From Candidatus Woesearchaeota archaeon (GTDB taxonomy: Archaea; Nanobdellota; Nanobdellia; Woesearchaeales; BM511): a DNA stretch of 45,734 nucleotides. Below the pieces are notes generated by a model. It did not search any database and was not told the DNA's origin. It saw only the letters and a program-made list of their open reading frames with translations. Shown one piece after another: positions 18,119 to 40,620 of this stretch (positions are counted from its first letter, which is position 1; every line of letters begins with the position of its first letter). The translations under genes and the position numbers were made by a program. The DNA is taken from contig JAHFPP010000002.1 in assembly GCA_023266675.1 (NCBI GenBank), positions 1 through 45,734 of the forward strand, given 5' to 3'.

Positions 18119-18119
18119 C

Positions 18120-24498: not shown

Positions 24499-24518
24499 AT
24501 TAAAATTAGGATATCTTT

Positions 24519-25633: not shown

Positions 25634-25698
25634 ATAAATACCACAAAATATGTTATTATTACATAAAATAACATAATATACCACAAAAATGAATTAAC

Positions 25699-25833: not shown

Positions 25834-25859
25834 AGACTAAAAAAATTGGTGTGAACTGA

Positions 25860-25994
25860 ATGCCTGAAATAAGAATAGATATGAATGACGCTTTTTTAGA
25901 TAAAAAACTGCGAATCTACATGGCTGAAAATGACATTAAATCCAAAGAGAAAGCTATACTCAAAATACTAAACGAGAGATTAAACAAAAAATGA
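25860..25994 (+). CDS. 44-aa ribbon-helix-helix-like small protein (copy 2, tandem paralogue)
   Basis: Translation MPEIRIDMNDAFLDKKLRIYMAENDIKSKEKAILKILNERLNKK. 55 nt identical to copy 1 (25897-25951 versus 25736-25790). Its stop overlaps the next ATG (ATGA at 25991-25994). Confidence 0.55.
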   Translation: MPEIRIDMNDAFLDKKLRIYMAENDIKSKEKAILKILNERLNKK

Positions 25995-27625: not shown

Positions 27626-27627
27626 AA

Positions 27628-29169
27628 ATGAAAGAGAATAATATTCAGGATAAAGAGAAAAGAGAGTTCATCAAGAAAGGACTCTTGGCAATCGGCGTTG
27701 GCGGAGCTGCAGCACTACTCAGTAAAGTTGATTTTGTTAGTGCAGAGAGAAGAATCTCATCAGTTAGTACAAGTGGAGATCTTGCTATTAATTCCAATAA
27801 ATTCACTGTTGCAGCAAATACTGGTAACACCATCATTGCTGGGACTCTTGGGGTGAGTGGTGATTTTGCTGTTAATACTAATAAGTTTACTGTTGCAGCG
27901 TCGACTGGTAACACTGTTGTTGCTGGAAATTTATCAGTTACAGGAACAGCGCAATCTACAGGTATGTTTGATGCAGGTTCAACAACACCATCGCATACTA
28001 CTCGTTTAAATTATGACGGTTATCTTTATGCTACAAGGTTTTATGGTGACGGCTCTCAGCTAAGCAGTCTGCCAAGCGCATCTATTACTCCTTCAACTAG
28101 AACTTCAAATACAATTCTTGCAGCAGGTGATAAAGGAAATTTAATTGATATAACTTCTGGAACATTCACTCAAACATTTACCGCAGCAGCAACTTTAGGC
28201 AGCGGTTGGTATTGTTATATAAGAAACTCAGGAACTGGGGAAATCACACTTGACCCAAACAGCACAGAAACAATTGATGGATTAACAACTTATATTATGT
28301 ATCCACAAGAGTGCAGACTAGTTTTATGCAATGGTACTTTATTTACTACAATTGTGATGACACCTTTTAAAATTGTTATCACATCAACACAGGCACTCAT
28401 CACACCACCCGGATATAATTACCTCGGCATGGATTTAGTTGGAGGAGGTGCCGGTGGTAGTGAAGGCACCGGTGGGCAAGCAGGTGCAGGCGGCGGTGGA
28501 GCAGGATGCCGTTTCAAAACATTTCAGATTTGTCCAAGTGCAGGATCATCTAATACAGTTACAATCGGAGCATCAGCAACATATAATGCTGATGGCAATT
28601 ACACATCTTTCCTAAATCAAAAGGCGTATGGTGGATTGTGTGGTTACAACATAGATACATGGACAACAGCTGGAGGTAATGGTGGAGGTCCATTTGCCAG
28701 TGGTGCACCACATGTAATGGTGTCATCTATTAGTAATTCTGGAAAAAATTTAGGTCTTGGTGGAGGTATGCACGTTTCCAATTACAACGACGGAAATTGG
28801 GCAACATGGGGTGGCGGGCAAGGTGGCGGCAGCGGCGGCAATGGAGGCTGTTCAATCTATGGACCAGCAGGAGGTGGTGCTGGTGGATATGGTGCGTCAG
28901 GAGGCGACGGCGGAGATAGTAATGCTAACGGAACAGGCGGTGGTGGGTTAGGTGCAACATCATCCGGTGCAAATGGTGCTAACGGGACGACGCACGCAGT
29001 TACAGGTATGGGAACAGGCGGTGGTGGCGCATACGGAGGCGGTGCATCAGTAGGTGGAAATGGAGGATTTCCCGGAGGTGGTGGTGGTGGTAAAGGTGCT
29101 GGTTCTTCTGGTCACGCAGGAACAGGTGGCGCAGGTCAAGCAACTATTTGGGGGATGATTACACTATGA
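27628..29169 (+). CDS. fibre-associated protein with the same N-terminus and a C-terminal glycine-rich domain
   Basis: N-terminus KREFIKKGLLAIGVGGAAALL is identical to the upstream gene. Contains NKFTVAANTGNT..AG.L.V.G repeats and YGDGSQLSSL. The domain starts ITPPGYNYLGMDLVGGGAGG, is followed by long GGxGG tracts, and ends GGAGQATIWG. Confidence 0.7.
   Translation: MKENNIQDKEKREFIKKGLLAIGVGGAAALLSKVDFVSAERRISSVSTSGDLAINSNKFTVAANTGNTIIAGTLGVSGDFAVNTNKFTVAASTGNTVVAGNLSVTGTAQSTGMFDAGSTTPSHTTRLNYDGYLYATRFYGDGSQLSSLPSASITPSTRTSNTILAAGDKGNLIDITSGTFTQTFTAAATLGSGWYCYIRNSGTGEITLDPNSTETIDGLTTYIMYPQECRLVLCNGTLFTTIVMTPFKIVITSTQALITPPGYNYLGMDLVGGGAGGSEGTGGQAGAGGGGAGCRFKTFQICPSAGSSNTVTIGASATYNADGNYTSFLNQKAYGGLCGYNIDTWTTAGGNGGGPFASGAPHVMVSSISNSGKNLGLGGGMHVSNYNDGNWATWGGGQGGGSGGNGGCSIYGPAGGGAGGYGASGGDGGDSNANGTGGGGLGATSSGANGANGTTHAVTGMGTGGGGAYGGGASVGGNGGFPGGGGGGKGAGSSGHAGTGGAGQATIWGMITL
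27676..27738 (+). repeat. 63-nt block identical to 26039..26101
   Basis: Direct comparison of the two 5' coding regions. The first mismatch comes immediately after the block (g versus a), followed by 7 more identical nt. Confidence 0.9.
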
Positions 29170-29571: not shown

Positions 29572-29667
29572 TGGGGGTATTGGGATTCGAACCCAAATCC
29601 GACGCTCTGGAGGCGACTATTTAAGCCGGCGTTTAATACGCCACTAGCCAGGTTATACTATACCCCC
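29572..29667 (-). tRNA. tRNA, probable tRNA-Trp (anticodon CCA) with a roughly 22-nt insertion (putative non-canonical intron) between D-loop and anticodon stem; no encoded CCA end
   Basis: Minus-strand read: GGGGGTA TA GTAT AACCTGGCTA GT[GGCGTATTAAACGCCGGCTTAA]AT A GTCGC CTCCAGA GCGTC GGAT TTGGG TTCGAAT CCCAA TACCCCC A. The acceptor stem (7 bp) and T-arm are perfect. The anticodon loop has U33 and CCA. The insertion forms its own hairpin, GGCGT/ACGCC. Confidence 0.75.
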
Positions 29668-29765: not shown

Positions 29766-30452
29766 ATGACTTTTAAGGAATGGGTAAGTAAAAAGTTTAA
29801 TGAATTTAAAAAAACCAAGTTTTACATCAAGACAAAGGAAAGATTAAGAAAGCTCATGATTAAGCTTTTGATTATATCTGTTGTTCTAATCCTGTTTTAT
29901 ATTGGATTTCTATGGATAAAACCTTATTTAGTTGCGTATCTTAACAGTCATCCGTGGATTAATGCAATATATCAGCACATAATCTACCAGATATCCCAAA
30001 AGACGTATCTTGGGCTTTTCTATGCAAGTTTTTTTGGTGCAATATTCTTCATAGCAATACCGCTTGAGATAATCCTCCTGTACTATATTTCACTTGGATA
30101 CAACATTTTTTTTATAGGCGCTGTATCAATTATCGGAGGGGTTCTTGGTTTGTTTATCAATTATCTTATTGGACTACTCCTTGGAAAAAAAATAATGAAA
30201 TACCTCTTTAAGGATTCTTTCAACAAAATGCATGACTGGGTAGAAAAATATGGAGGGTTCTTCCTTGTGATTGGCTGCGCAGTGCCATCCCCGGTAGAAC
30301 TTGTAACCGTTGTTTTTGGCACAGCTAAATACTCAATAAAGAAATTTTTTATATATACAACAATTGGAAAAATATTAAAAATAATAATACTTTATTTCCT
30401 TGCCGACTGGTTGTTAAAAGTTGTAATTCCCAAATTCTCAGGCATATTTTAG
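29766..30452 (+). CDS. DedA/TVP38 (VTT/SNARE-associated) family membrane protein
   Basis: 228 aa, polytopic. Contains YGGFFLVIGCAVPSPVELVTVVFGTAKYSIKKFF, typical of the family. Confidence 0.6.
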   Translation: MTFKEWVSKKFNEFKKTKFYIKTKERLRKLMIKLLIISVVLILFYIGFLWIKPYLVAYLNSHPWINAIYQHIIYQISQKTYLGLFYASFFGAIFFIAIPLEIILLYYISLGYNIFFIGAVSIIGGVLGLFINYLIGLLLGKKIMKYLFKDSFNKMHDWVEKYGGFFLVIGCAVPSPVELVTVVFGTAKYSIKKFFIYTTIGKILKIIILYFLADWLLKVVIPKFSGIF

Positions 30453-30787
30453 AATGATAATGTATAACCAATTCTTATTTTATGTTTATCAATGGTTCCT
30501 TTTTCAAATTCAATTATGTATTTTGCATTTTTCTTTGAAGAATAAAAAGAGAAAGGCGAAAAACCTTCGTTTATCTCAACAATCCTCTTTTTTTCATCCA
30601 AAAATATTACATCAATAGGATAAAAAACAAACCACATATCCATAATTACTTTCTGGGGAACATCAAAAGTGAATATTACTCCCTTACTTTTTGGACTTTT
30701 TCTAAACCTTAATCCAATTGCTTTTGAGAAAAATGAATTGCAATACTCAGCATTTTTAGCTATAACTCTCTTTCCTACTTTTATCAT
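30449..30787 (-). CDS. DUF192 (UPF0127) family protein
   Basis: Contains AIGLRFRKS...GVIF...MDMWFVFYPIDVIFLD. GGAGG lies 9 nt upstream of the ATG. Confidence 0.65.
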   Translation of the reverse strand: MIKVGKRVIAKNAEYCNSFFSKAIGLRFRKSPKSKGVIFTFDVPQKVIMDMWFVFYPIDVIFLDEKKRIVEINEGFSPFSFYSSKKNAKYIIEFEKGTIDKHKIRIGYTLSF

Positions 30788-30891: not shown

Positions 30892-31731
30892 CTAACTTGT
30901 ATTAAAATATTGATAATCAATAACGCTTCTGTCAAGTAATTCAATGTTCTGGCGCGAGAAATCAAGTAGATCAACAAGGCTTGTAATTCCATATTGTGAC
31001 GCTGAAAAATTCCCAGAAAAACGCGAAATGAAATCAGGAGCATTTGATGATTCAATATAATATGAATTATTAAGTGCCAGATACAACACTGATGTGTCAT
31101 TATTTGTTTTGTTCACAAAGTTTGTATTGTTTGCCCTACTTATTATATTTGTCACTTTATTATAGCTTCTTACAGTATAAATTGGGTCCTCAAAGCTTAT
31201 TATATCAACCTCTTTTTGAAAAACCTTATCATATTTCCAGCATGCAAGATTGTTAAAATCTGTAATATTCATTGTTGCATTAAGTTCAATCGTTATTTTC
31301 CATGGGGTTTTATGGTACACTCTAACATTTCGTGGGGTGATATACACATTAATATTCAATTTTTCAGCTTCATTATTCATCCTGAATGCCCAGTCATTAA
31401 TTGATGCGTTTTCCATGATATCTTCTTTGACACCATTAATGCTTCCATTAACAACCAGCTCCTGGAATACATCGCTAAAATTAGTTACAAAAACACCATT
31501 TACAGCTATGTATCTTTGCAGAGTTATTATTGCACGGTATCCGCTAATCATCAGGTTACGCTGTGCATCCTGATGAACGCTAAGTATAAAATCATTCATA
31601 GTGGTTACTCTTGAGGATGTTACAAAACTTTTTTGCATGTAATCAGTTCTTGAAAGTAGAGAAACATTGGCAATTAAAACCGCAACAAGAAGTATTGCAA
31701 ATACTGTAAAAATCATGCTTTTCTTGTTCAT
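30892..31731 (-). CDS. membrane-anchored (N-terminal TM) extracellular protein, last gene of the pilin-like operon
   Basis: MNKKSMIFTVFAILLVAVLIANVSLL, then a hydrophilic sequon-rich domain. Start set at the ATG at 31731, 8 nt after the upstream stop. The track start at 31779 overlaps the giant gene. Confidence 0.55.
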   Translation of the reverse strand: MNKKSMIFTVFAILLVAVLIANVSLLSRTDYMQKSFVTSSRVTTMNDFILSVHQDAQRNLMISGYRAIITLQRYIAVNGVFVTNFSDVFQELVVNGSINGVKEDIMENASINDWAFRMNNEAEKLNINVYITPRNVRVYHKTPWKITIELNATMNITDFNNLACWKYDKVFQKEVDIISFEDPIYTVRSYNKVTNIISRANNTNFVNKTNNDTSVLYLALNNSYYIESSNAPDFISRFSGNFSASQYGITSLVDLLDFSRQNIELLDRSVIDYQYFNTS

Positions 31732-31739
31732 CTTTTGTA

Positions 31740-34700
31740 TCACTGCCAAATTCTCACCTCCGCAATTGCAGGTCCCCAAGGATACGGAACTTTATTAACA
31801 GATATAGCGCCAATAACAAGATTATTCTCTACAAGATTCACATCAATCTTTCCGTTACTATTCAAATCAAGATTATTCAAAAGCTTGTAAACTGCGTCGT
31901 CATAAGTATCATTCACATTATAAATAATCCCGCTGCTTTTGTAACTGCAATTATTGCTCCCTAAATAATTCTGCGGTACTTTAAGCGTTGATACAGAATT
32001 ATCCTCAAACTGCACATTCCAATTACATCCTATAGCATACTCAAGTACCTCGCTATACGAAATAGTTGATTTCATTAGGCCGGTATAAAAAAATGTGTCA
32101 TTTGGAGAGCATCCTGTGGAGTTTACAGGTTCAATTCCTGTTCTTATAGTTATATTATTTATTTTATCATAATTCAAAAGCAAAGGCGAAAAACCAACAA
32201 TGTAAGGGTCACCTAAAAATTGATAATCCGAGTTAAACCAGCTTAAATTATGCGTTGTCGCATTATTTACAAACAGGTAATCAGTCCATTTACTTGATGA
32301 ATAGCTAGAAACTTTGGAATCAACAAGTCTAAGTTTAGAGGATATATTACTGTAAAGTGTGCAGTTCAAAATTCCTCTGTTCTCAAAATTTGCTGATATT
32401 TCTCCTATTTCTGGAGCATGAATAGGTGATGTGTAGTTTATTTCAATATACGATTCCTGACCATATAATTTTGACAGCGTTGGTGAACCAGTTACGACAA
32501 TTTTTTGCTCTACACGTGAAACATCCATTATCTCTGCTGCAACATCATCATAAAAATTACTTAAGACAGCTGTGTCATTGCTTCTAAGATACATTCCTCC
32601 ACCGCAATCTGCTATTCCTTGAAGAGTTGATTCATCAGCATCAGAACTGTAACCAACAGCATAAACAGATATACCCCAATTTCGTCTAGCGTCACACGAA
32701 GCCTGTATTGCGTCATCCATTGATGTATCTGCTGTGTCATCATTATCAAGGTCAGCAGTAACTCCCTGCTCTGAACATTCCCTGTTTGCCTGTCCATCAG
32801 TCATTAACAGCATGGCTTTATTTCGCGAATCATTTATCCTAAATAATTCCATATTAAATCTGCTAAACTCACTACTTGTAAAAAGTTCAACTGCAAAAAC
32901 ATTTTCTCCTTCCCTAAAATAACTATTGGCAATCTGATGCCCGACAGTATTCCAATAAGTCGCATTATTCACTGTATTATCACTGAACACCAAAACGCCA
33001 TTAAGATAAACTTTTGCACTGTTATCTGACATAAGATTCATGAATATCTTGCTTAAAGAATTCAAATTTGTAATATTAAAATGTTTTCTAAGATAATAAG
33101 TCTCAGTAGTGTTAGATGCTTTTAAACTTACATTATCAAACTTTGCAGCACCCCACTTGCTACTGCTATCAGCATTTAACTTAGCACCAAAATCCAGATA
33201 ATAGTGTCCTGGTCCTTCCACATAATCTTTGATGTTAGTTGAAAAAAATCCGCTAAACTCAGTATCAGGATTATTTTGATTTGCAACTTCAAGTGTATTA
33301 TCTCCATCAACATTTGAAATTTCTGAACCAAGATAGTGCTCACCGCTATTTGGACTTATCCATCTTGATTTTATCCATACTTCATCAACAATGCTGCTAA
33401 ACGGATTTGCAGGACTACTCTCCCATTCATAATTGAATTCAAGAATAAATTTTCCATTGCTTGCGTTTATTACAGCATAAAGTGCAGGTGTTATATCAAC
33501 ATCAACACCATAAAATCCCTGACAGTCATAATTAGAACACCTGTTTTGTGAAGGGGAACCTGTTGAGAAATTTAATTTTAAAACTCCATTTGTAGGACCA
33601 GAAAAATTCACAGTAAAATTAGTCTGGCTGCTAACAATACTTACCCATACAGCTGAATAATTTAAAACGTCTTTAATTATTGAATTATCATCCATATACG
33701 CAATCTGCAGACTTAAATTTCTGTTACTTTGACTGCTCCATGCAGACAATATATTTGAATTTGTTATTATCTTTGATATATTCCCGCTTCCAATTGGTGT
33801 CATATTTCCAATGTATTCAAAACCTGTCCCATTATACATTTTTAATAACAACAGCGGAAGTGTGCCATTATTTGCTGAAGATGCTGAACTGTTATAAGCG
33901 TTTATATTCACTGTTACAGTAATATTCTCAAGCGATGAGGATGGCAGAACTCCAGTTAAAACTCCTGAATAATTTCTGACAGACCCATTAATATCAATCT
34001 GATTATTTGGAAATAATGAATAATTGATTTGCATTTTTATAAAATCACATCGAATCTGGTTTGAAAGATGGGAAGAATCTACATTTGTTACAAGCTTAAC
34101 TCTTGCATTATTTGCGCTTGAGGCATTCCAAGTTAAACCCCATAATTCGACAAGACCATTTGTGTTATTTCTTAATGTATAAGCTGTCCCAATATCTCCT
34201 GTATCATCAACAGTCGGAGACCATGAAGTTCCATTATTATTGCTTAGCTGGATATAAAATGTATTTGTTCCTGTGCTAGGATTTACACTGCAATTACTGT
34301 TTACAAGCAATCCATTAATAACTGTTGAACTTGTCAAATTATCCAATGGAATATTTGTGTTAAAACCATACCAAGAATTATTTCTATAAGACGCTGTTCC
34401 ATTTCCAAAAGTTATTCCTGGTCCATACATGTTGGATGCGTTTATCCAACCCTTTCCAATTGATAAGTTTGAAGATGGAAGAACAAGACTGCTAACATAT
34501 TTGCCAACGGTATTATTTAACTGTAAGAATATTGTTGAATTTTCCAAATCCGCACTTACATTAGTAATCGTAATTAATGTTCCTGACCCGTTCCAGTCCC
34601 AACCATCATCACCTCTTCCAAGTCCAAACGTATTAGCAGTGGAATTCCAACCATGTGTGAAATCTGCTTCTGGAGATGAAAGATCGCTTGAATTTTCCCA

Positions 34701-36470
34701 CATTACCGGGTGAGAATAATTCAGGAATATGATTCCTCCCCCCATATCGGTGTTTATGTTTGGATTTCCAAAAATGTGACCAAGTGTTGCATTTCCAGTC
34801 TTCCAACTGCTTTCATTGGCATATGTAAAATTATACCACGAATTATTAGAAGCATCATTTTTTGGGGTGCCGTTAAAGCTTGTATTTGTAAAACTCCATA
34901 CGCTGCCATTTGCAACAAGCACTGTCCTATTAATTCCTATAGAAAGAATATTTGTTGCAGAATTTATTCCGCAGCATATGCATGTCCATAAAATTGTCGA
35001 ATAATTATTTATGTTGCTAGTTACAAGCGTAATATTATTTGAAAGATTAAGTGTTTTATCTGTTGTTGTTGAATAGCTTACAAGACCAATTTTATTCCCA
35101 GACACGTTTAACATATTTGTTGCAAAGGTTTTATCAAGACATTTGGCAACACTGAGTCTGTTGGTATCTGAGTCATTTATATGAGGGTCAGTGCAGTTTC
35201 TTGTAACACCATCATTACCACTATTCATCTCATAACCCATGCTGCCGGATATATCAGTGCTTATTACGGCATCAGCAGAACCTAAATACTCAACAAAATA
35301 ACTAACATTCTCTGCACCCATCCTTATCGGGATATTTTTTGTTGACAAGAATGAATAATTCATTCCAAGACTTCCAAGCACGCTTCCGTCAAGGCATTGA
35401 ATTGTTGTTGTAGTTGAACTCGTATCAGTAAAAACAGTTGAGTTTCCAATCTTAAGATAAAATGTTGAATTGCTGGAATTTGTATGGTCAACAAAGTATT
35501 TTACGCAGACACTCATATCTGTTATATCACCTGGAATGTATGTTGAGGAATAAATATTTATAAGGCCGTCAATTGATGGAAAGTAAAATTTTGTATAACC
35601 TTCAGGTGCCGGGTCATACATCTGTTTTGTTTTATAGTCAAATCTTACAAACCCTCCGCTTAGGTATGCAGTGTCAAGACTTCCAAGGGGAATTATTGAA
35701 ATGTTATTTCTTACACCAGGAATTACGCTGTTTTTACAAGTTGAAAGATTCCAAGAATCAGCTGTCATTACTCCTGATTTCTTTGTCAGATTTATTCCGC
35801 ATTTTACATTGTTAAAATATATATTGAATATGTCACCTATATCATTTCCTATCTCAATCTCTGCGTAAATATTTGTAATATTCGCGTCGATTGGTATATC
35901 ATCTGTGAAATCAGAAATGTTTCCCTGGCCGATAAATCCTCCAAAAAAGATGTAGCTTGAATCCTTTTTTTCTTCAAGCCCCTCAAGATAAACCTTTGAT
36001 GTTGAACCTCGAATCGGCTTATATCTCTCAATTCCGGAAATCAGTCTTTTTGCAGTCATTACTTTCTGGCCTACAGGCTTTCCATTTGTATAAACCAATT
36101 CATCATTTATTGATATTGAAAACCCGTAATTACCAGGTATCAATTCAGCGCTTATATTTCTTGCAAGATTCTCAGCTTCAACAGTCTTATTAAGAACATA
36201 AAGTTCACCGATTGTTTCAAGAAGGGTGTTATTGAGATTTTCAACAACACCGCTTGCTATTATCTCCTTCATATATGAATTATTTATTTCATAAGTTTTT
36301 ATGCTAGAAAAACCTTTTACGATATCATATGACATGTAGCTTAAATCAGGCGTTTTGTCTTCATGCACAAAATTCTGGGAGAGTGATATCATGGCTATGA
36401 CTATTATCAGCCCTGCAAACATTGCATCAGTTGTAAAAAGTATTCCCTTATCTTTCTTTTGACCAAACAT
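31740..36470 (-). CDS. 1576-aa pilin-like (class III signal-type N-terminus) giant adhesin with a vWA domain interrupted by a very large insertion
   Basis: N-terminus MFGQKKDKG|ILFTTDAMFAGLIIVIAMISL. MIDAS motif DISGSM at aa 406-411 (nt 35255-35238). WTCICCGINSA at about aa 495-504. The vWA resumes with AMLLMTDGQAN (D at aa 1225, nt 32798) ...VYAVGYSSDADESTLQGIA. Very many N-x-S/T sequons. Confidence 0.8.
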   Translation of the reverse strand: MFGQKKDKGILFTTDAMFAGLIIVIAMISLSQNFVHEDKTPDLSYMSYDIVKGFSSIKTYEINNSYMKEIIASGVVENLNNTLLETIGELYVLNKTVEAENLARNISAELIPGNYGFSISINDELVYTNGKPVGQKVMTAKRLISGIERYKPIRGSTSKVYLEGLEEKKDSSYIFFGGFIGQGNISDFTDDIPIDANITNIYAEIEIGNDIGDIFNIYFNNVKCGINLTKKSGVMTADSWNLSTCKNSVIPGVRNNISIIPLGSLDTAYLSGGFVRFDYKTKQMYDPAPEGYTKFYFPSIDGLINIYSSTYIPGDITDMSVCVKYFVDHTNSSNSTFYLKIGNSTVFTDTSSTTTTIQCLDGSVLGSLGMNYSFLSTKNIPIRMGAENVSYFVEYLGSADAVISTDISGSMGYEMNSGNDGVTRNCTDPHINDSDTNRLSVAKCLDKTFATNMLNVSGNKIGLVSYSTTTDKTLNLSNNITLVTSNINNYSTILWTCICCGINSATNILSIGINRTVLVANGSVWSFTNTSFNGTPKNDASNNSWYNFTYANESSWKTGNATLGHIFGNPNINTDMGGGIIFLNYSHPVMWENSSDLSSPEADFTHGWNSTANTFGLGRGDDGWDWNGSGTLITITNVSADLENSTIFLQLNNTVGKYVSSLVLPSSNLSIGKGWINASNMYGPGITFGNGTASYRNNSWYGFNTNIPLDNLTSSTVINGLLVNSNCSVNPSTGTNTFYIQLSNNNGTSWSPTVDDTGDIGTAYTLRNNTNGLVELWGLTWNASSANNARVKLVTNVDSSHLSNQIRCDFIKMQINYSLFPNNQIDINGSVRNYSGVLTGVLPSSSLENITVTVNINAYNSSASSANNGTLPLLLLKMYNGTGFEYIGNMTPIGSGNISKIITNSNILSAWSSQSNRNLSLQIAYMDDNSIIKDVLNYSAVWVSIVSSQTNFTVNFSGPTNGVLKLNFSTGSPSQNRCSNYDCQGFYGVDVDITPALYAVINASNGKFILEFNYEWESSPANPFSSIVDEVWIKSRWISPNSGEHYLGSEISNVDGDNTLEVANQNNPDTEFSGFFSTNIKDYVEGPGHYYLDFGAKLNADSSSKWGAAKFDNVSLKASNTTETYYLRKHFNITNLNSLSKIFMNLMSDNSAKVYLNGVLVFSDNTVNNATYWNTVGHQIANSYFREGENVFAVELFTSSEFSRFNMELFRINDSRNKAMLLMTDGQANRECSEQGVTADLDNDDTADTSMDDAIQASCDARRNWGISVYAVGYSSDADESTLQGIADCGGGMYLRSNDTAVLSNFYDDVAAEIMDVSRVEQKIVVTGSPTLSKLYGQESYIEINYTSPIHAPEIGEISANFENRGILNCTLYSNISSKLRLVDSKVSSYSSSKWTDYLFVNNATTHNLSWFNSDYQFLGDPYIVGFSPLLLNYDKINNITIRTGIEPVNSTGCSPNDTFFYTGLMKSTISYSEVLEYAIGCNWNVQFEDNSVSTLKVPQNYLGSNNCSYKSSGIIYNVNDTYDDAVYKLLNNLDLNSNGKIDVNLVENNLVIGAISVNKVPYPWGPAIAEVRIWQ

Positions 36471-36987
36471 AGGTTACCATCTCAATTATTCGTACGCTGC
36501 TGTTATTATTATCTCTTAAAACAACAAACCTTGTTATTGATGAAATGTGAGTTGGAGACTCAAGCGATTCAATATTTGTATTATTGATTCCCTGCTTGCC
36601 AATAAACTTTTGATTTGTTATATTTAATACGTTTCCGTTATAATCAGTAAAAAATATGATATAATCATATTTAGTTTTTAATAGAGTTCGCGCTTTATCG
36701 TAATCATCTCTAGTCATATTTGAAAATAATTCAAGTTTACCAAGCATCAATGTGTAATCATTATCTGTGAATCCGATTCGCACAACGTTTGTTGAGTTCC
36801 AGTCATCAGGGTAACCTTTTGTTGTAAGATAATCCGTAATTGTTTTTGTCTCTGACATGACATTGTTTTCAATATTCTCTGTTCCAATATTCTGATTTGT
36901 GTAAAAAGAAAAAAAAATAAGTATCATCATTGTTATTATTACTACCGCGATTATAAGGTCCTGCGTAAATGCTTGGGCTTTTTTCAT
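36448..36987 (-). CDS. pilin-like protein (class III signal-type N-terminus)
   Basis: MKKAQ|AFTQDLIIAVVIITMMILIFFSF. 179 aa. 23-nt overlap with the giant gene. Confidence 0.6.
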   Translation of the reverse strand: MKKAQAFTQDLIIAVVIITMMILIFFSFYTNQNIGTENIENNVMSETKTITDYLTTKGYPDDWNSTNVVRIGFTDNDYTLMLGKLELFSNMTRDDYDKARTLLKTKYDYIIFFTDYNGNVLNITNQKFIGKQGINNTNIESLESPTHISSITRFVVLRDNNNSSVRIIEMVTYVWSKER

Positions 36988-36996
36988 AATATCCAG

Positions 36997-37374
36997 TCAA
37001 CATAATTCTATATTTAAGCATATTTTGCCGTTAATGTTTCTTATAGTGTTTTCTCCTTTCTTTATATTTCCTGAAATATTTGGAAGACTTGCTATAAGGT
37101 CAATATTATTGTAGGTGATAATTAGGTCGCCGCCTGTTATAGAGATGTTATAATCGACATTGTTAAGTTTTAAAGGTACATCAAAATTTCTAAAATATCC
37201 TGGTTCAACTTTGGTTGCCAAAAAAAGTTCATTTTCAACACTCACCAAAATATTTTTTGCAATTATTACGTTCTGCTCATCTACCTGGTCCTTGAAAAAA
37301 TATGTGAGTGTCCCAATCAGAAGTATGCCTATAGTCAAAGACACACCAAGCATGATGATGAATTCAGCAGACAC
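36997..37374 (-). CDS. pilin-like protein (DUF361-type SAEFII N-terminus), start problematic
   Basis: (GTG)SAEFIIMLGVSLTIGILLIGTL. The only in-frame start is GTG 37374, which leaves no leader peptide (see finding). Confidence 0.55.
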   Translation of the reverse strand: MSAEFIIMLGVSLTIGILLIGTLTYFFKDQVDEQNVIIAKNILVSVENELFLATKVEPGYFRNFDVPLKLNNVDYNISITGGDLIITYNNIDLIASLPNISGNIKKGENTIRNINGKICLNIELC

Positions 37375-37382
37375 CTGCGCAG

Positions 37383-37814
37383 TTACGTTTCGCTTACCGA
37401 TACATAATCACCCTCTGATTTTATGGCAATAAGATGAACTCCTTGCACTGTTGAGATGTTTCCGCTTATATTAATTGGTGTTATTTGGCTTATATCAAGA
37501 ATAACATTATCTGATGTTTTATAATAAATTATGATTTCTTTGTTTTGAAAAGTCATGTTTTCAATACCGCGTGGAATATTTACTTTTAGTGTAGTCTTTG
37601 AAGGCTCACCTTGATAATACATCTCCTCCGCCTTATACGCTATCTCCCTTGCAATCTGAGACGCCTGTGAAATAGCAATATCAGATTTTATATGCTCAGA
37701 CTCTGTAGCAAATAGAAGTATTGTCGGTATCAAAAGAACAAGCGTAAAACCCATCATCACAAGATATTCTATGCTAAACTGCGCCCTACTAAAAATACGT
37801 ACCTCTTTTTTCAC
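37383..37814 (-). CDS. pilin-like protein with canonical archaeal class III signal peptide
   Basis: (GTG)KKEVRIFSRAQ|FSIEYLVMMGFTLVLLIPTILLF. GGGTGA lies 6 nt upstream of the GTG start. Confidence 0.7.
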   Translation of the reverse strand: MKKEVRIFSRAQFSIEYLVMMGFTLVLLIPTILLFATESEHIKSDIAISQASQIAREIAYKAEEMYYQGEPSKTTLKVNIPRGIENMTFQNKEIIIYYKTSDNVILDISQITPINISGNISTVQGVHLIAIKSEGDYVSVSET

Positions 37815-38032: not shown

Positions 38033-38671
38033 GTGTTAAGCATCGACGATCAAAAAGGATTTAACCGTTCAATGAATAAATATATTAGGGTTACAAGACG
38101 AAAAGAATCAGGAATACTTCAAAAATTATCCAATCATTTCGCAAAAATTCACCGGAAATTTAAGAAGCACGATCACAGTCTGCCTGAGAATTTGTCAGAA
38201 CACGAAATACACATAGAAGAAAAAAAACCGAATTTTTTTAAGAGATTGCTTAAAGGAAAATCAAAACAGGAGCAGGAGACTATCGAGGAAGAGGTAGTGT
38301 CCAAGCCTGAAGCTGTCCAGGAAAAAATGGAAGAAGTAGTAGAGGATTACGATACACTCAATGAAGTTGAGAAAGAAGTTGAGCACAAAAAAGACGGGCT
38401 TTTCTCAAAATTTAAGAGTATGCTTAAATCAAAACCAAAACACGCAGCAGATGAGGATATCCCTGTTGAGCAGATTGAACGGGTAATTGAAGGAAAACCA
38501 GCAAAGCATTCTGATGACCCACACGAATTAAGGGAAGATTTGAAAAGAATTTCAAAAATAACTTTGTCAGTGATCCACGACCTTGACGAGGAAAAGCAGG
38601 ACGCATTTAAGCGAAGCGGCGAATTTCACGAATATAAAACAATTCTTGAAAAGCACGGGCTTGTAAAATAA
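38033..38671 (+). CDS. highly charged K/E-rich protein, unknown function
   Basis: 212-aa ORF. Low complexity (EEKKPNFFKRLLKGKSKQEQETIEEEVV). GTG start overlapping GGAGGTG; an alternative ATG (MNKYIRV) is at 38072. T-runs follow the stop. Confidence 0.45.
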   Translation: MLSIDDQKGFNRSMNKYIRVTRRKESGILQKLSNHFAKIHRKFKKHDHSLPENLSEHEIHIEEKKPNFFKRLLKGKSKQEQETIEEEVVSKPEAVQEKMEEVVEDYDTLNEVEKEVEHKKDGLFSKFKSMLKSKPKHAADEDIPVEQIERVIEGKPAKHSDDPHELREDLKRISKITLSVIHDLDEEKQDAFKRSGEFHEYKTILEKHGLVK

Positions 38672-38708
38672 ATTTTTATTTTTTACTTATATTTTTTCTT
38701 AGAATATC

Positions 38709-39584
38709 TTATTCTTTAGTCAATTTCTGCCGTCCAGTAATATAATTTGTAACAAGCCCTGATAATCCAGCATATTTATTATCATCTATTTTATCAGGAT
38801 TTGTTATTAAAATACTATAAGCGCTATTAATATCATCTTGTGTCACACCTTTTGGTTTTGCATCTAAAACTGCGCGAATGCATCCGCCAGCACTTCCTAC
38901 ATTATGCACTCCGGCGTCAAAGTTTGAGTTCATAAGAAACCGATTTACCCATGATGCACGGCTAATTGCATTTCCATTTTTAGCTTTCTTTTTTACATAC
39001 TCAGGATTCAAGACATAAATCCTTGTTTTTTCCATTTTATTATCTTTTAGCATTTTCATGACTTCCTTGAAGTCCTCACCTTTGCCATAAACCATTTCTG
39101 CAAATTTTCTCTGAGTTTTATTCAGGCTATCATAATTATTACTTTCATTTTCAGATTTTGACGCCGTTGAAATTTCAAAATAGCACAATTCGTCATCAGT
39201 GTGCTTTTGAAGATTTAATTCTGATAAATCAATTTTAATTGTTTCACCTATCTTAACTGATTCTTTGATTTCGTTCATTTCGTCAAGCGATGGTGTGTAA
39301 TCTCTTGTCTCTTTTATCTGCTTCACAGCGTCGTCAATGTGCCTAAAAATCAAATTATGCTCTCTTTTTGCAAAGTAAAGGATTACTTTGTCATTTTCAA
39401 CAGTATACATTGGAAAATCTGCAGTAAAATACCATCGCTCCCTTAATTCATTATTCTTAATTCTCTCTTTCATTATCTCATAAGAATGGCTGACTGTACC
39501 TATGTATGACTCTTTTAATGCCGCACATAGTTCACCTATTATATCTTCAAGAGAGTCTTTTTTTGCCATTTGAGATTTTTTCAA
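38709..39584 (-). CDS. hypothetical protein (291 aa), no recognisable motif
   Basis: Long clean ORF with typical local codon usage, convergent with 38033..38671. Confidence 0.5.
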   Translation of the reverse strand: MKKSQMAKKDSLEDIIGELCAALKESYIGTVSHSYEIMKERIKNNELRERWYFTADFPMYTVENDKVILYFAKREHNLIFRHIDDAVKQIKETRDYTPSLDEMNEIKESVKIGETIKIDLSELNLQKHTDDELCYFEISTASKSENESNNYDSLNKTQRKFAEMVYGKGEDFKEVMKMLKDNKMEKTRIYVLNPEYVKKKAKNGNAISRASWVNRFLMNSNFDAGVHNVGSAGGCIRAVLDAKPKGVTQDDINSAYSILITNPDKIDDNKYAGLSGLVTNYITGRQKLTKE

Positions 39585-39659
39585 TATACTTTATAGAGTA
39601 AATACTAAGAAACTTATAAAGGTTTAGGAGATTAAACCACTTTAAAGTGGATACATATG

Positions 39660-40286
39660 TTATATTCTAAATTTACTATATAAAAATCTCTTTAAAAAAT
39701 TAAGATTACCCTTATCTAGTGAAAATTTATTCATATTCCTTCTAAGATATTTTACTCTTAACTTAGTTAAATCTTCTGAGTTATCATAAAAAGCATCATC
39801 AAATTCATCCATATCTTCAGAATATTCTTGTAAGATACTCCACCAATATTCATGTTGACTTAATTTATCTCCTCTTTTTTTAATAACTTTTTTATCAACA
39901 TTTTCAATTAACTCCCTGTTTTTCTGTAATTCAATGTATTCTGCTTTTGAAAGTTTATTTTGTGTTATTTTTAATAGTGCTTTCTTTGTAATATCAGCTT
40001 TTTTAGAAGCTCCGATAATTTTCAAAGCATCAACAGCATCATATGCAAATATCCCTGAAGAATTAAAAAAATACTGTCCATACCCACCATTACTAATTTC
40101 ACCTTCTAACATAAATGTAATATAATTTACTCTAATTGGTTCCGGAAGAGACATTACTAATTTATACTGTTCATCCCACTGTTCTTTGATTACATCATTC
40201 ACAACATAATCTACTAAATACTGTTCAATTTTCTCATCAGTCAATAATTCAATTTTTTCCTTTGATAATTTATTTCTTGAATTCAT
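39660..40286 (-). CDS. DUF4375 / DMP19-like (DNA-mimic or immunity-type) domain protein
   Basis: Contains VNYITFMLEGEISNGGYGQYFFNSSG, matching the NGGFxQ(F/Y)FxN core of the DMP19 C-terminal domain family. Confidence 0.5.
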   Translation of the reverse strand: MNSRNKLSKEKIELLTDEKIEQYLVDYVVNDVIKEQWDEQYKLVMSLPEPIRVNYITFMLEGEISNGGYGQYFFNSSGIFAYDAVDALKIIGASKKADITKKALLKITQNKLSKAEYIELQKNRELIENVDKKVIKKRGDKLSQHEYWWSILQEYSEDMDEFDDAFYDNSEDLTKLRVKYLRRNMNKFSLDKGNLNFLKRFLYSKFRI

Positions 40287-40620
40287 TTTGTAGTAACTTT
40301 AAGTATAATACTTCTAATTAATATAAATATCTAATTATATCTTAAAATCTTAATTTTTGAAATACATAATTCTCTTTCTTTTAGAGATAATTTCTAATTG
40401 AAAATAATCTTAATATACCTAACTATTGTTACTTTATCCGGGTTCCCACTGGACGCACTGGACAGCTGTGCACGAGAAGTTTATAAACTAATTCTCTTTC
40501 TTATTTTTAGTTTTTACTTATATTTTAATCACAATTTGTAAGTTCAACTGCCAAATTATGATTTACTCAAATAAATAAATCATTTACGCAGGTTTCACGT
40601 GAGAAATTCAGTGATATAAA

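What the first reader, a model, noticed from the sequence alone, without database searches (positions are those of the whole stretch)
30892..37814. Pilin-like operon whose fourth gene is a 1576-aa class-III-signal vWA adhesin
Five co-directional minus-strand genes all begin with a short charged leader plus a hydrophobic helix. Three are small pilin-like proteins (RAQ|FSIEYL, SAEFIIMLGV, KKAQ|AFTQDLIIAVVII). The fourth is a giant protein with a pilin-like N-terminus (KDKG|ILFTTDAMFAGLIIVIAM) and a vWA/MIDAS domain. The fifth is a TM-anchored protein. No assembly ATPase, platform protein or prepilin peptidase is in the window. The architecture suggests a pilus or pseudopilus that presents a very large, heavily glycosylated, metal-dependent adhesin at its tip. 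It would be a functional analogue of bacterial tip adhesins such as PilY1/PilC, but built on an archaeal pilin scaffold. In a putative episymbiont this is a prime candidate for the host-contact organelle.
Basis: partly seen in the sequence, partly recalled or inferred. Interest (0 to 1): 0.75.

Follow-up and report, generated by a model that had tools for sequence, protein, structure and literature searches.

The report
DPANN pilin operon with vWA adhesin
These five genes look like the previously unannotated pilin-type gene set of a type IV pilus system conserved across DPANN archaea, and the fourth gene encodes a giant metal-binding (vWA) adhesin with lineage-variable, lectin-like modules inserted inside its binding domain, making it a concrete candidate for how these tiny archaea attach to surfaces or host cells.

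Summary
Five tightly packed minus-strand genes (A-E, 30892-37814) all begin with a Lys/Arg leader, a small residue and a hydrophobic helix. Gene D (1576 aa) carries a MIDAS-bearing vWA domain.

New findings:
1. The module A-B-C-D-E(-DUF192) is conserved across DPANN. In 28 of 34 relatives with full flanks, a T2SSE ATPase lies within 10 kb, normally followed by two T2SSF platform genes. This contig has lost that linkage.
2. Ortholog alignments show two motif classes. A and B have [KR][GAS]|Q-x-S/A-x-E-[FY], the Epd/Flp type with Glu+5. C, D and E have KK[GAS]|x-x-[FWY]; D and E usually have Thr/Ser at +4, and C and D have Asp+6.
3. D's vWA domain is split by a 708-aa insert between helix alpha3 and strand beta4. 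The insert contains jelly-roll lectin-like modules and a 334-aa orphan segment. Other lineages carry different modules at the same site.
4. The vWA most resembles those of pilus tip adhesins (Mfa5, S. sanguinis PilB).
5. N-glycosylation sequons in D are enriched (z = 8.3).

Not tested: cleavage by a prepilin peptidase, tip location, and any role in host contact.

Verdict: a new archaeal variant of the modular-pilin adhesin theme.

The parts
37383..37814 (-). Gene A, 143 aa. Pilin-like protein with a class III signal of the Epd/DUF361 type: MKKEVRIFSRA|QFSIEYL (Gln+1, Glu+5, Tyr+6).
   Evidence: ORF. PF04021 E 0.06 on the window protein and 26/52 orthologs at E<=0.01. Ortholog motif: Q 92%, E+5 90%, Y/F+6 89%. 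Directly upstream of B-C-D in 62/76 loci.
36997..37401 (-). Gene B, 134 aa if it starts at the in-frame ATC at 37399-37401 (125 aa from the GTG at 37374). Paralog of A with leader GKRNVTA|QVSAEF.
   Evidence: hhalign A vs B: probability 98.2%, E 3.6e-14 over 118 columns. PF04021 E 0.0035 with the leader vs 0.46 without. 16/59 orthologs match DUF7266. The ATC start recurs in L005, L008 and L041.
36448..36987 (-). Gene C, 179 aa. Pilin-like N-terminus MKKA|QAFTQDLIIAVV (Gln+1, aromatic +3, Asp+6).
   Evidence: Ortholog motif: K-2 90%, Q+1 93%, W/F+3 91%, D+6 90%. 5/47 orthologs match DUF7287. Weak profile similarity to D residues 1-120 (probability 67%, E 5e-5).
31740..36470 (-). Gene D, 1576 aa. 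Giant adhesin-like protein made of a pilin-like N-terminus, an N-domain, a split vWA carrying a nested insert, and a C-terminal beta domain.
36378..36470 (-). D residues 1-31: leader MFGQKKDKG, then the hydrophobic helix ILFTTDAMFAGLIIVIAMISLS (Phe+3, Thr+4, Asp+6, Ala+7).
   Evidence: Family motif from 78 orthologs: G/A at -1 99%, F+3 81%, T/S+4 91%, D+6 96%, A+7 90%, A+10 88%. The model of the short homologue P0077 has a helix at residues 3-29.
35316..36377 (-). D residues 32-385: family-specific N-domain (helical segment followed by beta-sandwich), with no Pfam match.
   Evidence: phmmer with residues 1-380 finds 702 cluster representatives (E<=1e-3). In nearly all of the 150 listed hits the match starts within the first ~45 residues. 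In the P0077 model this region has pLDDT mostly 82-98.
34944..35315 (-). D residues 386-509: N-terminal half of the vWA domain, with MIDAS D406-x-S408-x-S410 (35241-35255) and Thr496 in WTCICCG (34968-34988).
   Evidence: D, S, S and T are invariant in the 58-sequence family alignment. Model pLDDT >90. Foldseek and HMM matches to the vWA domains of Mfa5, PilB and BatB.
32820..34943 (-). D residues 510-1217: 708-aa insert between vWA helix alpha3 and strand beta4. It has a proximal module (510-629), an orphan segment (630-963) and a distal jelly-roll module (964-1217).
   Evidence: BLASTP of D against the 883-aa homologue P0077 shows D 8-509 = P0077 5-525 and D 1218-1576 = P0077 532-883, so P0077 has only 6 residues where D has the insert. 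The proximal module is found in 69/119 family proteins and the distal module in 76/119. Foldseek matches to galactose-binding-like domains, PNGase F and the Fbs1 sugar-binding domain.
33582..34583 (-). D residues 630-963: orphan 334-aa segment nested inside the insert, with 25 sequons.
   Evidence: No BLAST hit in 119 family proteins or in any ORF of the loci. No hit in the 5.8-billion-protein collection. pLDDT <50.
32481..32819 (-). D residues 1218-1330: C-terminal half of the vWA domain (beta4 AMLLMTDG, with MIDAS Asp1225 at 32793-32804).
   Evidence: PF00092 profile positions 103-172 match residues 1216-1307. D/G are >90% conserved in the family. pLDDT ~90 or above.
31743..32480 (-). D residues 1331-1576: conserved C-terminal beta-rich domain ending ...VPYPWGPAIAEVRIWQ.
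   Evidence: Conserved across the family. In the P0077 model the equivalent residues 640-883 are beta-rich with pLDDT ~90.
30892..31731 (-). Gene E, 279 aa from the ATG at 31731. Pilin-like N-terminus MNKKS|MIFTVFAILLVAV with no acidic residue in the helix. Orphan family.
   Evidence: Ortholog motif: K-3 72%, K-2 83%, G/A/S at -1 in 71/72, F/Y+3 94%, T+4 58%. Directly downstream of D in 63/78 loci. No Pfam or PDB sequence match. Sequons 12 vs 5.1 expected (z 3.6).
30449..30787 (-). DUF192 (COG1430) gene, 112 aa, a frequent sixth member of the module.
   Evidence: PF02643 E 2.3e-18. It follows E in L001, L005, L006, L008 and about 25 further loci.

Best explanation
Genes A-E encode the pilin-type subunits of a type IV filament (Tad/Epd-like, 'System 1'-like) that is conserved across DPANN archaea. 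In most relatives its motor, one T2SSE ATPase and a platform split into two T2SSF genes, lies immediately downstream. In this contig the two parts have become separated.

A and B are paralogous small pilins with an Epd/Flp-type class III signal ([KR][GAS]|Q-x-S/A-x-E-[FY]). C, D and E carry a second, previously unrecognised variant of the signal (KK[GAS]|x-x-[FWY]; D and E usually have Thr/Ser at +4, and C and D have an invariant Asp at +6).

Proposed mechanism (inferred, not shown):
1. A prepilin peptidase encoded elsewhere removes the short basic leaders.
2. The N-terminal helices of the minor subunits B, C, D and E assemble on the platform into an initiation complex.
3. The ATPase then polymerises the major pilin beneath that complex. 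The major pilin is either A or a small pilin encoded elsewhere.
4. The complex, including D, therefore ends up at the distal end of the filament.

D is the adhesin. Its N-terminal helix anchors it in the filament, and a MIDAS-containing vWA domain binds a ligand through a metal ion. Jelly-roll, lectin-like modules sit in an insertion hot-spot between vWA alpha3 and beta4. In the standard vWA topology this point is on the face opposite the MIDAS. These modules differ between lineages and would add or tune glycan specificity.

D and E are predicted to be heavily N-glycosylated by the AglB pathway encoded in the same window.

Shown here: gene order, conservation, motifs, the split vWA fold, linkage to the machinery in relatives, and sequon enrichment.
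Inferred: cleavage, incorporation into a filament, tip position, ligand type and actual glycosylation.
For: **Synteny.** The canonical order A-B-C-D-E-[DUF192]-G-ATPase-T2SSF-T2SSF is seen in dozens of species-level genomes. A+B+C lie directly upstream of D in 62/76 loci, and E directly downstream in 63/78. An ATPase lies within 10 kb in 28/34 loci with at least 9 kb on both sides (median distance 2.7 kb). Pfam confirms T2SSE plus PilB3_C and 2x T2SSF.

**Signals.** Position-specific conservation around [KR][GAS] is strong: Gln+1 92-98% in A, B and C; Glu+5 90-96% in A and B; Asp+6 90-96% in C and D. The control rate is 21%. PF04021 matches A and B orthologs. A and B are homologous over their full length.

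**vWA domain.** The MIDAS residues are invariant. The best PDB sequence matches are the Mfa5 fimbrial tip vWA (6.6e-15) and the S. sanguinis modular pilin PilB (1.6e-10). Foldseek gives Mfa5, SpaC, PilB, PitA, RrgA and BatB (TMt 0.73, rmsd 3.0 A).

**Split domain and variable insert.**. Other lineages carry Laminin_G_3 (4e-27), DUF2341 and Reelin-subrepeat-B at the same site.

**Extracellular, glycosylated.** Sequon z-score is 8.3 for D and 3.6 for E. AglB/STT3 is at 11864-14821.

**Literature.** System 1/Clade 1 archaeal pili combine an ATPase, two platform genes, at least 5 minor pilins and adhesins (PMC4858521; preprint 10.64898/2026.04.22.720090). DPANN Tad-like clusters were reported without identifiable pilins (PMC9563170; PMC4858521).
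Against: - No ATPase, platform or peptidase gene is in this 45.7-kb contig, and no prepilin-peptidase-like ORF lies within 10 kb in any of 87 loci. Processing is therefore unproven.
- PF04021 is below its gathering score on the window's own A and B and does not match C, D or E.
- In the model, D's region after the first helix is a helical segment followed by beta-sandwiches. It is not an evident canonical pilin head, and I could not run a domain-level fold search.
- The vWA begins about 350 residues after the helix, unlike the short linker in S. sanguinis PilB.
- A, B, C and E have no significant relative of known structure.
- Which subunit is the major pilin is unknown.
- The locus survey is biased: it used the 80 best of 425 hits to a short-form query.
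Confidence: 0.7

Rival explanations
1. C, D and E are uncleaved bitopic (type II) membrane proteins rather than pilins. On this view D is a membrane-anchored vWA adhesin comparable to BatA/BatB, or to the role proposed for TadG as a pilus anchor. C and E would be assembly or alignment components of the machine, functionally like PilN/PilO. Only A and B would enter the filament.
For: PF04021 does not recognise C, D or E. D's vWA superposes best, among single domains, on membrane-anchored BatB (TMt 0.73) and matches a Vibrio 'membrane spanning protein' (4rck, 1e-13). No peptidase was found nearby. D's post-helix region is not an obvious pilin head. [quoted passage not shown]
Against: - A small residue (G/A/S) at -1 preceded by Lys/Arg is found in 86-99% of C, D and E orthologs, against 21% of controls. 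A plain anchor does not need this.
- An invariant Asp six residues into the hydrophobic helix (90-96%) is unfavourable for a simple TM anchor. It parallels the Glu5 of pilins.
- C shares Gln+1 with the PF04021-matching pilins A and B.
- Gene order with A and B is fixed across phyla.
Confidence: 0.17
2. The system is a secretion-type pseudopilus (analogous to T2SS) or a bindosome-like surface assembly rather than an extended adhesive pilus. A-E would form a short pseudopilus that exports or positions surface proteins through the S-layer.
For: Five pilin-like genes in one operon with no evident abundant short major pilin resembles the GspG-K sets. No stand-alone small pilin is present in the window. 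The window is rich in large surface proteins.
Against: A MIDAS vWA of the pilus-adhesin type, plus lectin-like inserts fused to one of the pilin-like subunits, argues for ligand binding rather than a piston. Archaeal System 1/Epd machines with split platforms make true pili in M. maripaludis (preprint 10.64898/2026.04.22.720090). The major pilin can be encoded elsewhere, as in Clade 1 systems (PMC4858521).
Confidence: 0.08
3. In this particular genome the module is an orphaned remnant. It has been separated from its motor by rearrangement and no longer builds a filament.
For: G, the ATPase and both T2SSF genes are absent from the contig. The neighbourhood differs from the syntenic relatives L002 and L005 by inserted genes (Mrr-like, DMP19-like) and surface-protein genes.
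Against: All five ORFs are intact, including a 4.7-kb ORF with conserved MIDAS residues. Relatives L006/L007 also lack the motor within 10 kb, and L005 has the T2SSF genes 8 kb away (the ATPase may lie beyond the fetched stretch). So separation from the motor is common and tolerated. Makarova et al. describe pilin sets and ATPase/TadC modules evolving as separable units (PMC4858521).
Confidence: 0.05

Closest known systems
PilB of Streptococcus sanguinis, a bimodular type IV minor pilin with a vWA module (PDB 7b7p; PMC8179133)
   Same: Both have an N-terminal pilin-type hydrophobic helix followed by a MIDAS-containing vWA adhesion module, and both are encoded among the pilin genes of a type IV pilus locus. 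The D family profile hits PilB's vWA by sequence (1.6e-10) and by fold. The concept is the same: a functional module grafted onto a pilin for display.
   Different: PilB is bacterial and about 460 aa, with a canonical GFTLIE-type signal (IPR012902) and a short linker. D is archaeal and 880-2000 aa, and its motif is KK[GA]|xxF[TS]xDA. About 350 residues of family-specific domain precede the vWA, a large C-terminal domain follows it, and the vWA itself is interrupted by nested modules. That paper's survey of modular pilins covered bacteria only.
Archaeal Clade 1 / 'System 1' (Epd) type IV pili of Methanococcus maripaludis and relatives (PMC4858521; preprint 10.64898/2026.04.22.720090)
   Same: Both have one secretion ATPase, a platform split into two TadC/T2SSF genes, at least five minor pilin-like genes in the locus, and adhesin-like proteins. 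Pilins have the Q-x-S-x-E-[FY] (DUF361/PF04021) signal. The major pilin may be encoded elsewhere.
   Different: No EppA peptidase, FleN/MinD or transglutaminase gene was seen in the DPANN loci. Neither paper mentions a vWA pilin-like adhesin or the KK[GA]|xxFTxDA signal class; Makarova et al. discuss only cytoplasmic ArnB-type vWA proteins. Makarova et al. could not identify cognate pilins in nanoarchaea. No ATPase phylogeny was done here, so clade assignment is open. The ATPase also carries a PilB3_C-like tail.
Bacterial Tad/Flp pilus pseudopilins TadE and TadF, and vWA-containing TadG
   Same: Tad-type motor (TadA, TadB, TadC). Pilins have a Glu5-Tyr6/Phe6 motif, as in A (x4-E-Y) and B (x4-E-F). 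There is a large accessory protein with a hydrophobic N-terminus and a vWA domain. The motif comparison rests on established knowledge of Flp/TadE/TadF signals. The TadG vWA is cited in PMC4858521.
   Different: D gave no match to the TadE/TadG N-terminal Pfam families at E<=1. The domain architecture and insert are unrelated. TadG's role is itself unclear (anchor or adhesin).
PilY1/PilC tip-associated adhesins of bacterial type IVa pili
   Same: A large adhesin is encoded with a set of minor pilins that prime assembly. P. aeruginosa PilY1 also has a vWA domain (PMC9210963, PMC8179133).
   Different: PilY1 is not a pilin. It docks through a C-terminal beta-propeller, and no such domain was detected in D. 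D instead carries its own pilin-like helix.
vWA tip adhesins of other pilus types: Mfa5 (type V pili, P. gingivalis) and RrgA/SpaC/PitA (sortase pili)
   Same: These are the best sequence and structure matches for D's vWA. Several of them also have extra 'arms' or domains inserted into the vWA fold.
   Different: Their assembly pathways are entirely different (type V strand exchange, or sortase). They have no class III signal and they are bacterial.

Membership tests
Type IV pilin / class III signal peptide proteins (archaeal, PF04021-type) | Short basic leader ending in Gly/Ala(/Ser), followed by a hydrophobic helix of about 20 residues | tested here: met
   All five window proteins, and 79-99% of their orthologs, have [KR][GAS] immediately before the hydrophobic core. 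The control rate is 21%.
Type IV pilin / class III signal peptide proteins (archaeal, PF04021-type) | Recognition by the curated model PF04021 at its gathering score | tested here: not met
   Window A scores 13.8 bits and B 17.7 bits (with leader), against a cut-off of 23.7. C, D and E give no hit. Among orthologs, 26/52 (A) and 14/59 (B) match at E<=0.01, with best E-values of 4.7e-5 (A) and 7.1e-6 (B). The signal is therefore family-level, not curated-threshold level.
Type IV pilin / class III signal peptide proteins (archaeal, PF04021-type) | Conserved acidic residue near the start of the mature helix (Glu5 or equivalent) | tested here: met
   Glu+5 is 90% in A and 96% in B. Asp+6 is 90% in C and 96% in D. 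E has none.
Type IV pilin / class III signal peptide proteins (archaeal, PF04021-type) | Cleavage by an A24-family prepilin peptidase (PibD/FlaK/EppA) | not testable with these tools
   No candidate peptidase is in the window or within 10 kb in 87 loci. This needs a complete genome and biochemistry.
Type IV filament system (T4P/Tad/Epd) | Secretion ATPase (T2SSE) and platform protein (T2SSF) genetically linked to the pilin genes | tested here: inconclusive
   Absent from this window. Present within 10 kb in 28/34 fully flanked relatives, usually directly downstream.
Modular type IV pilin (sensu Raynaud et al. 2021) | N-terminal pilin module (alpha1 helix packed on a beta-sheet) carrying a grafted functional module | tested here: inconclusive
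   The helix (P0077 residues 3-29) and a functional vWA module are present. The intervening 350 residues could not be tested as a separate domain against pilin folds. The IPR012902-type signal is absent.
vWA domain with MIDAS (PF00092/PF13519) | Rossmann-like vWA fold | tested here: met
   P0077 model vs BatB: TMt 0.73, rmsd 3.0 A. vWF-A3 and integrin I-domains: TMt 0.72-0.76. Both halves of the window's domain are modelled at pLDDT >90. On the window protein Pfam scores 21.6 bits against a cut-off of 23.8, because the domain is split.
vWA domain with MIDAS (PF00092/PF13519) | MIDAS residues D-x-S-x-S ... T ... D | tested here: met
   D406, S408, S410, T496 and D1225 in the window protein. The equivalent D, S, S and T are invariant, and D/G >90% conserved, in the 58-sequence family alignment. 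Metal binding itself was not tested.
PilY1/PilC adhesins | C-terminal PilY1/PilC beta-propeller domain that docks on minor pilins | tested here: not met
   No such Pfam match on D at E<=1. The C-terminal domain is modelled as a beta-sandwich-like region. D is a functional analogue only.
TadG-like pseudopilins | TadE/TadG-type N-terminal domain (Pfam TadE / Tad families) | tested here: not met
   No match on D at E<=1. vWA and a Tad-like motor context are shared.

The most novel reading that the evidence does not exclude
The A-E module is the long-missing pilin set of the Tad/Epd-like pili of DPANN archaea. D would be their host- or substrate-recognition adhesin, displayed on the filament. Its specificity would be diversified by swapping lectin-like cassettes into hot-spots inside the vWA domain, giving a modular 'specificity cassette' system that helps determine which partner cell or surface each DPANN lineage attaches to. 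The KK[GA]|xxF[TS]xDA N-terminus would then be a new class of archaeal prepilin signal that current predictors miss.
Probability: 0.35. Interest if true: 0.8.

Novelty: new variant of a known kind. Interest (0 to 1): 0.6.

Why it matters
DPANN archaea are abundant, mostly uncultured, and thought to live attached to other cells. How they attach is a central open question.

Genome studies have repeatedly found Tad-like motors in DPANN, but the authors could not identify the pilins (PMC4858521) or found none annotated (PMC9563170). This locus offers a concrete, conserved candidate for the pilin set and the adhesin:
- five families with defined signal motifs, usable to build detection models;
- a MIDAS site that can be mutated;
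- a hypervariable insert whose content can be compared with host range.

It also extends the 'modular pilin' principle from bacteria to archaea, and it gives an example of large domains nested inside a vWA fold.

In practical terms, gene callers mis-start two of the five genes here (B and E), which helps explain why such pilins go unannotated.

Tried and rejected
- **NCBIfam scan** of the five proteins: nothing useful.
- **PDB sequence and profile searches** for the insert alone and for families A, B, C and E: no significant hit. The weak B hits to S. sanguinis PilE1 (E 0.54) and an archaeal flagellin (E 2.2) are not evidence.
- **Homologue search for the orphan segment** (D 630-963): no hit anywhere. 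Its origin is unknown.
- **Prepilin peptidase search** by motif plus TM count, and by clustering of unassigned multi-TM ORFs in 89 loci: none found.
- **T2SSF genes at the window's right end**, expected from synteny with L005: rejected. That region encodes a Gly-rich surface protein running off the contig.
- **Small stand-alone Flp/Epd-type major pilin in the window:** none. The extra regex hits are antisense artefacts.
- **Five tandem small genes in L006** as possible pilins: rejected. They are multi-TM proteins with acidic N-termini.
- **Literature on DUF192, DUF7266 and DUF7287:** nothing relevant.
- **Domain-level structure comparison** of D's N-domain, D's C-domain and E: not possible.
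- **PilY1-like or TadG-like membership:** considered and rejected on Pfam evidence.

Full report
**1. What is in the sequence**

Window 30892-37814 carries five co-directional minus-strand ORFs:

| Gene | Coordinates | Length |
|---|---|---|
| A | 37383-37814 | 143 aa |
| B | 36997-37374 as called | 125 aa |
| C | 36448-36987 | 179 aa |
| D | 31740-36470 | 1576 aa |
| E | 30892-31779 as called | 295 aa |

They are packed like an operon: 19-nt overlap, 9-nt gap, 23-nt overlap, 8-nt gap. A DUF192 gene follows after 104 nt.

Two gene starts need correcting.
- **E.** The long ORF begins with 'MGTCNCGG...'. This peptide recurs in relatives only because it overlaps D's conserved C-terminus in another reading frame. 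The true start is the ATG at 31731 (MNKKS|MIFTV, 279 aa).
- **B.** The conserved leader lies upstream of the first ATG/GTG/TTG. An in-frame ATC at 37399-37401 gives M-G-K-R-N-V-T-A|Q-V-S-A-E-F. The same ATC arrangement is seen in L005, L008 and L041. With the leader, the PF04021 E-value improves from 0.46 to 0.0035.

The rest of the window is archaeal cell-surface biology:
- AglB/STT3 (11864-14821);
- a glycosylation and heptose-type sugar cluster (1677-11857);
- PKD/CARDB/MopE surface proteins (16253-29169);
- S-adenosylhomocysteinase and an AsnC-type regulator.

No ATPase, platform protein or peptidase is present.

**2. Organism and family**

D has more than 150 detectable relatives. Those with names are Woesearchaeota, Nanoarchaeota, Aenigmarchaeota and similar DPANN archaea. 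A single peptide pattern found relatives in 425 stretches of species-representative genomes.

D's non-vWA N-terminal 380 residues alone retrieve 702 cluster representatives at 50% identity (525 at E<=1e-10). In nearly all of the 150 listed hits the match starts within the first ~45 residues of the protein. Full-length members range from about 850 to 2031 aa.

**3. Genomic context in relatives (the decisive evidence)**

Gene tables with Pfam annotation came from six look-ups of encoding contigs. I used them to seed local HMMs, which I ran over 89 loci.

The canonical order is A-B-C-D-E-[DUF192]-G-ATPase-T2SSF-T2SSF.
- A+B+C lie directly upstream of D on the same strand in 62 of 76 loci with enough flank.
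- E lies directly downstream in 63 of 78.
- A T2SSE ATPase is within 10 kb in 28 of 34 loci that have at least 9 kb on both sides (median distance 2.7 kb).

The ATPase carries T2SSE plus a PilB3_C-like tail. The two platform genes are each T2SSF. G is a protein of about 385 aa with a wHTH-like N-terminus and a coiled coil.

The window's closest relative (L005, D 65% identical) has the same AsnC, AdoHcyase and VTT-domain neighbours as the window. Its two T2SSF genes are 8 kb away. In the window the corresponding position holds other genes. The module here is therefore detached from its motor, as it also is in L006/L007.

**4. The N-termini**

I aligned 66-87 orthologs per family on the [KR][GAS] that precedes the hydrophobic core. 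The position-specific patterns are:

| Family | Pattern |
|---|---|
| A | [KR][AGS]\|Q(92%)-V/I-S-x-E(90%)-Y/F |
| B | \|Q(98%)-x-A/S-x-E(96%)-F(89%) |
| C | K[ASG]\|Q(93%)-x-W/F(91%)-x-x-D(90%) |
| D | KK[G71/A28]\|x-x-F(81%)-T/S(91%)-x-D(96%)-A(90%)-x-x-A(88%) |
| E | KK[G70/A21]\|x-x-F/Y(94%)-T(58%) |

Only 21% of 324 unrelated ORFs with an N-terminal TM helix have [KR][GAS] in the same search window. The figure is 79-99% for A-E.

Other profile-level results:
- Half of the A orthologs and a quarter of the B orthologs match PF04021 at E<=0.01.
- B orthologs also match DUF7266, and a few C orthologs match DUF7287.
- A and B are paralogs (hhalign probability 98%, E 3.6e-14).
- C resembles D's first ~120 residues weakly (probability 67%).
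- E matches D only over the N-terminal 36 residues.

The Glu at +5 followed by Tyr/Phe is the pattern of Epd (DUF361) pilins and of bacterial Flp/TadE/TadF. That comparison rests on established knowledge. The Asp at +6 in C and D is an equivalent buried acidic residue and would be odd in a plain membrane anchor.

As far as I recall the FlaFind rule (from memory, not run here), the C/D/E-type motif with an aromatic at +3 would not be accepted by it. That would explain why such proteins go unannotated.

**5. Protein D**

BLASTP against the 883-aa homologue P0077 aligns D 8-509 with P0077 5-525, and D 1218-1576 with P0077 532-883. Short forms have a contiguous vWA, with DxSxS near residue 386 and S/TDG near 540. 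D has 708 extra residues where P0077 has a six-residue linker, between helix alpha3 (...WTCICCGINSATNILS) and strand beta4 (AMLLMTDG).

This is why Pfam sees only profile positions 103-172 of PF00092, and below threshold.

The MIDAS residues D406, S408, S410, T496 and D1225 are present. Their equivalents are invariant or more than 90% conserved in the family.

Two AlphaFold2 models were made:
- **P0077, full length** (mean pLDDT 86.5): helix at 3-29, a helical segment, beta-sandwich domains, vWA at 379-625 and a C-terminal beta domain.
- **D 380-1335** (mean pLDDT 68): both vWA halves and the proximal and distal insert modules are confident. Residues ~630-963 are not.

The family profile's best PDB sequence matches are the vWA of the P. 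gingivalis fimbrial tip protein Mfa5 (6.6e-15), a Vibrio membrane-spanning protein (4rck) and the S. sanguinis modular pilin PilB (1.6e-10). Foldseek returns ITIH1, Mfa5, SpaC, PilB, PitA, RrgA, BatB (TMt 0.73), vWF-A3 and integrin I-domains.

For the model that contains the insert, Foldseek adds galactose-binding-like jelly-rolls of GH2/GH35 enzymes, PNGase F, and the Fbs1 sugar-binding domain (about 145 columns, rmsd 4.5 A, TMt 0.40). These are low-TM, multi-domain matches and should be read as fold class only.

**6. The insert is a lineage-variable cassette site**

- The proximal (510-629) and distal (964-1217) modules occur in 69 and 76 of 119 family proteins.
- The ~1480-aa class has part of the distal module duplicated.
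- D 630-963 is an orphan with no relative in the family, in the loci, or in the 5.8-billion-protein collection.
- P0086 carries Laminin_G_3 (ConA-like lectin, 4e-27), DUF2341 and Reelin-subrepeat-B at the same point. P0093 carries DUF2341 there.
- Two very long members (P0193, P0232) instead have about 1000 extra residues between the DxSxS and TCICCG motifs, which is a second insertion site.

In the standard vWA topology the alpha3-beta4 connection lies on the face opposite the MIDAS. This is an inference from known I-domain structures. It would leave the metal site free.

**7. Glycosylation**

| Protein | Sequons observed | Expected from shuffles | z |
|---|---|---|---|
| D | 75 | 34.9 +/- 4.8 | 8.3 |
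| E | 12 | 5.1 | 3.6 |

Cytoplasmic enzymes in the window show no enrichment. Sequon density peaks in the insert, at 7.5-10 per 100 residues. This predicts N-glycosylation but does not prove it. AglB is in the window.

**8. Interpretation**

The best-supported reading is that A-E are the pilin-type subunits of a DPANN-wide Tad/Epd-like type IV filament, and that D is a pilin-like, filament-borne vWA adhesin (confidence 0.7). Tip location follows by analogy with bacterial minor-pilin initiation complexes and modular pilins (PMC8179133). It was not tested.

E is the only subunit without the acidic helix residue. By analogy with GspK-type tip pseudopilins (my own knowledge), it might cap the complex.

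The main rival (0.17) is that C, D and E are uncleaved bitopic proteins, either anchors or assembly factors. Minor rivals are a secretion pseudopilus (0.08) and a defunct orphan module (0.05).

**9. Comparison with what is known**

- Modular vWA pilins are established in bacteria (S. sanguinis PilB). That survey did not include archaea (PMC8179133).
- Archaeal Clade 1/System 1 pili are described as combining an ATPase, two platform genes, at least five minor pilins and adhesins (PMC4858521; preprint 10.64898/2026.04.22.720090). Neither source mentions a vWA pilin-like adhesin. [quoted passage not shown]
- A 2022 study of Nanohaloarchaeota found TadA/B/C/V clusters but 'no pilins were annotated' (PMC9563170).
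- Within the held literature I found no description of this module.

I therefore rate it a new variant of a known kind, with moderately high interest (0.6). The principle is familiar. What is new is the candidate DPANN pilin set, the new signal variant and the cassette-bearing split vWA, all of which bear directly on how DPANN cells attach.

**10. Limits**

- Only one 45.7-kb contig of this organism is available.
- The locus survey used the 80 best of 425 hits and is biased toward short-form D.
- Locus HMMs were seeded from a few Pfam-annotated loci.
- Structural matches for multi-domain models have low global TM-scores.
- No experiment supports cleavage, filament incorporation, metal or ligand binding, glycosylation or host contact.

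Noticed in passing
window 37375-37401 (minus strand): Gene B's conserved class III leader lies upstream of the first ATG/GTG/TTG. An in-frame ATC (37399-37401) is the likely start, and the same ATC arrangement occurs in relatives L005, L008 and L041 (L042 has CTG). Standard gene calling truncates this pilin and removes its signal.
   Followed up: yes
window 31732-31779 (minus strand): The longest ORF for gene E starts 16 codons too early. The 'MGTCNCGG'-like extension looks conserved across loci only because it overlaps D's conserved C-terminal coding sequence in another frame. This is an annotation trap.
   Followed up: yes
window 33582-34583 (D residues 630-963): An orphan 334-aa Asn/Ser/Thr-rich segment is nested inside the vWA insert. 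It has 25 sequons, no detectable homologue anywhere, and a low-confidence model. Its origin is unknown.
   Followed up: partly
window 5435-10131 (minus strand): Next to AglB lies what looks like a complete nucleotide-heptose pathway with a transferase: SIS/GmhA-like (8319-8924), PfkB kinase (6452-7435), cytidylyltransferase-like (5435-5926), HAD phosphatase (5953-6471), epimerase (7432-8379) and a GT9 heptosyltransferase (8986-10131). This suggests heptose-containing glycans in this archaeon. It rests on Pfam hits only.
   Followed up: no
window 29572-29667 (minus strand): Rfam finds a tRNA (43.4 bits) spanning 96 nt that ARAGORN does not report. The length suggests an intron-containing archaeal tRNA.
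   Followed up: no
window 18165-21008 (+): The 947-aa PKD/MopE surface protein is strongly depleted in N-glycosylation sequons (4 observed vs 21.8 expected, z -4.3). This is the opposite of D, E and the ORF at 24519-25499 (z +4.0).
   Followed up: no
window 38033-41841: Genes lie between the pilin operon and the S-adenosylhomocysteinase/AsnC pair that directly flanks the operon in relative L002; L005 has a different set of genes there. They are a Lys/Glu-rich ORF, a 291-aa ORF, a DMP19-like protein and an Mrr-type restriction endonuclease. GC drops to 0.26-0.27. This is probably an inserted defence or mobile islet.
   Followed up: no
window 25991-29169 (+) and 43960-45734 (+): A surface protein carries a Peptidase_S74 'chaperone of endosialidase' domain, as in phage tail fibres (25991-27625). 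There are also two Gly-rich repeat proteins (27628-29169, and one running off the right end of the contig).
   Followed up: no
window 30449-30787 and loci L001, L005, L006, L008 and others: A DUF192 (COG1430) gene follows gene E in the window and about 28 relatives. In L008 a second copy is fused to a CDP-alcohol phosphatidyltransferase. Its function is unknown and I found no literature linking it to pili.
   Followed up: partly
proteins P0193 and P0232 (family members): Two very long relatives (1787 and 1940 aa) carry about 1000 extra residues between the DxSxS and TCICCG motifs. This is a second insertion site in the vWA domain, different from the one used in the window.
   Followed up: partly
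L003/L004 (Aenigmarchaeota) 6339-14548: Two D paralogs (1208 and 1515 aa) sit in tandem. My HMMs detected no A, B, C or E genes and no motor within 10 kb. The pair lies between ribosomal protein and V-ATPase genes, which is a different organisation of the family.
   Followed up: no
relatives' loci, gene G (e.g. L001 15407-16567): A conserved ~385-aa protein with a wHTH-like N-terminus and a coiled coil sits between the pilin module and the ATPase in most loci. It is absent from the window. It could be a regulator or a cytoplasmic assembly factor.
   Followed up: partly
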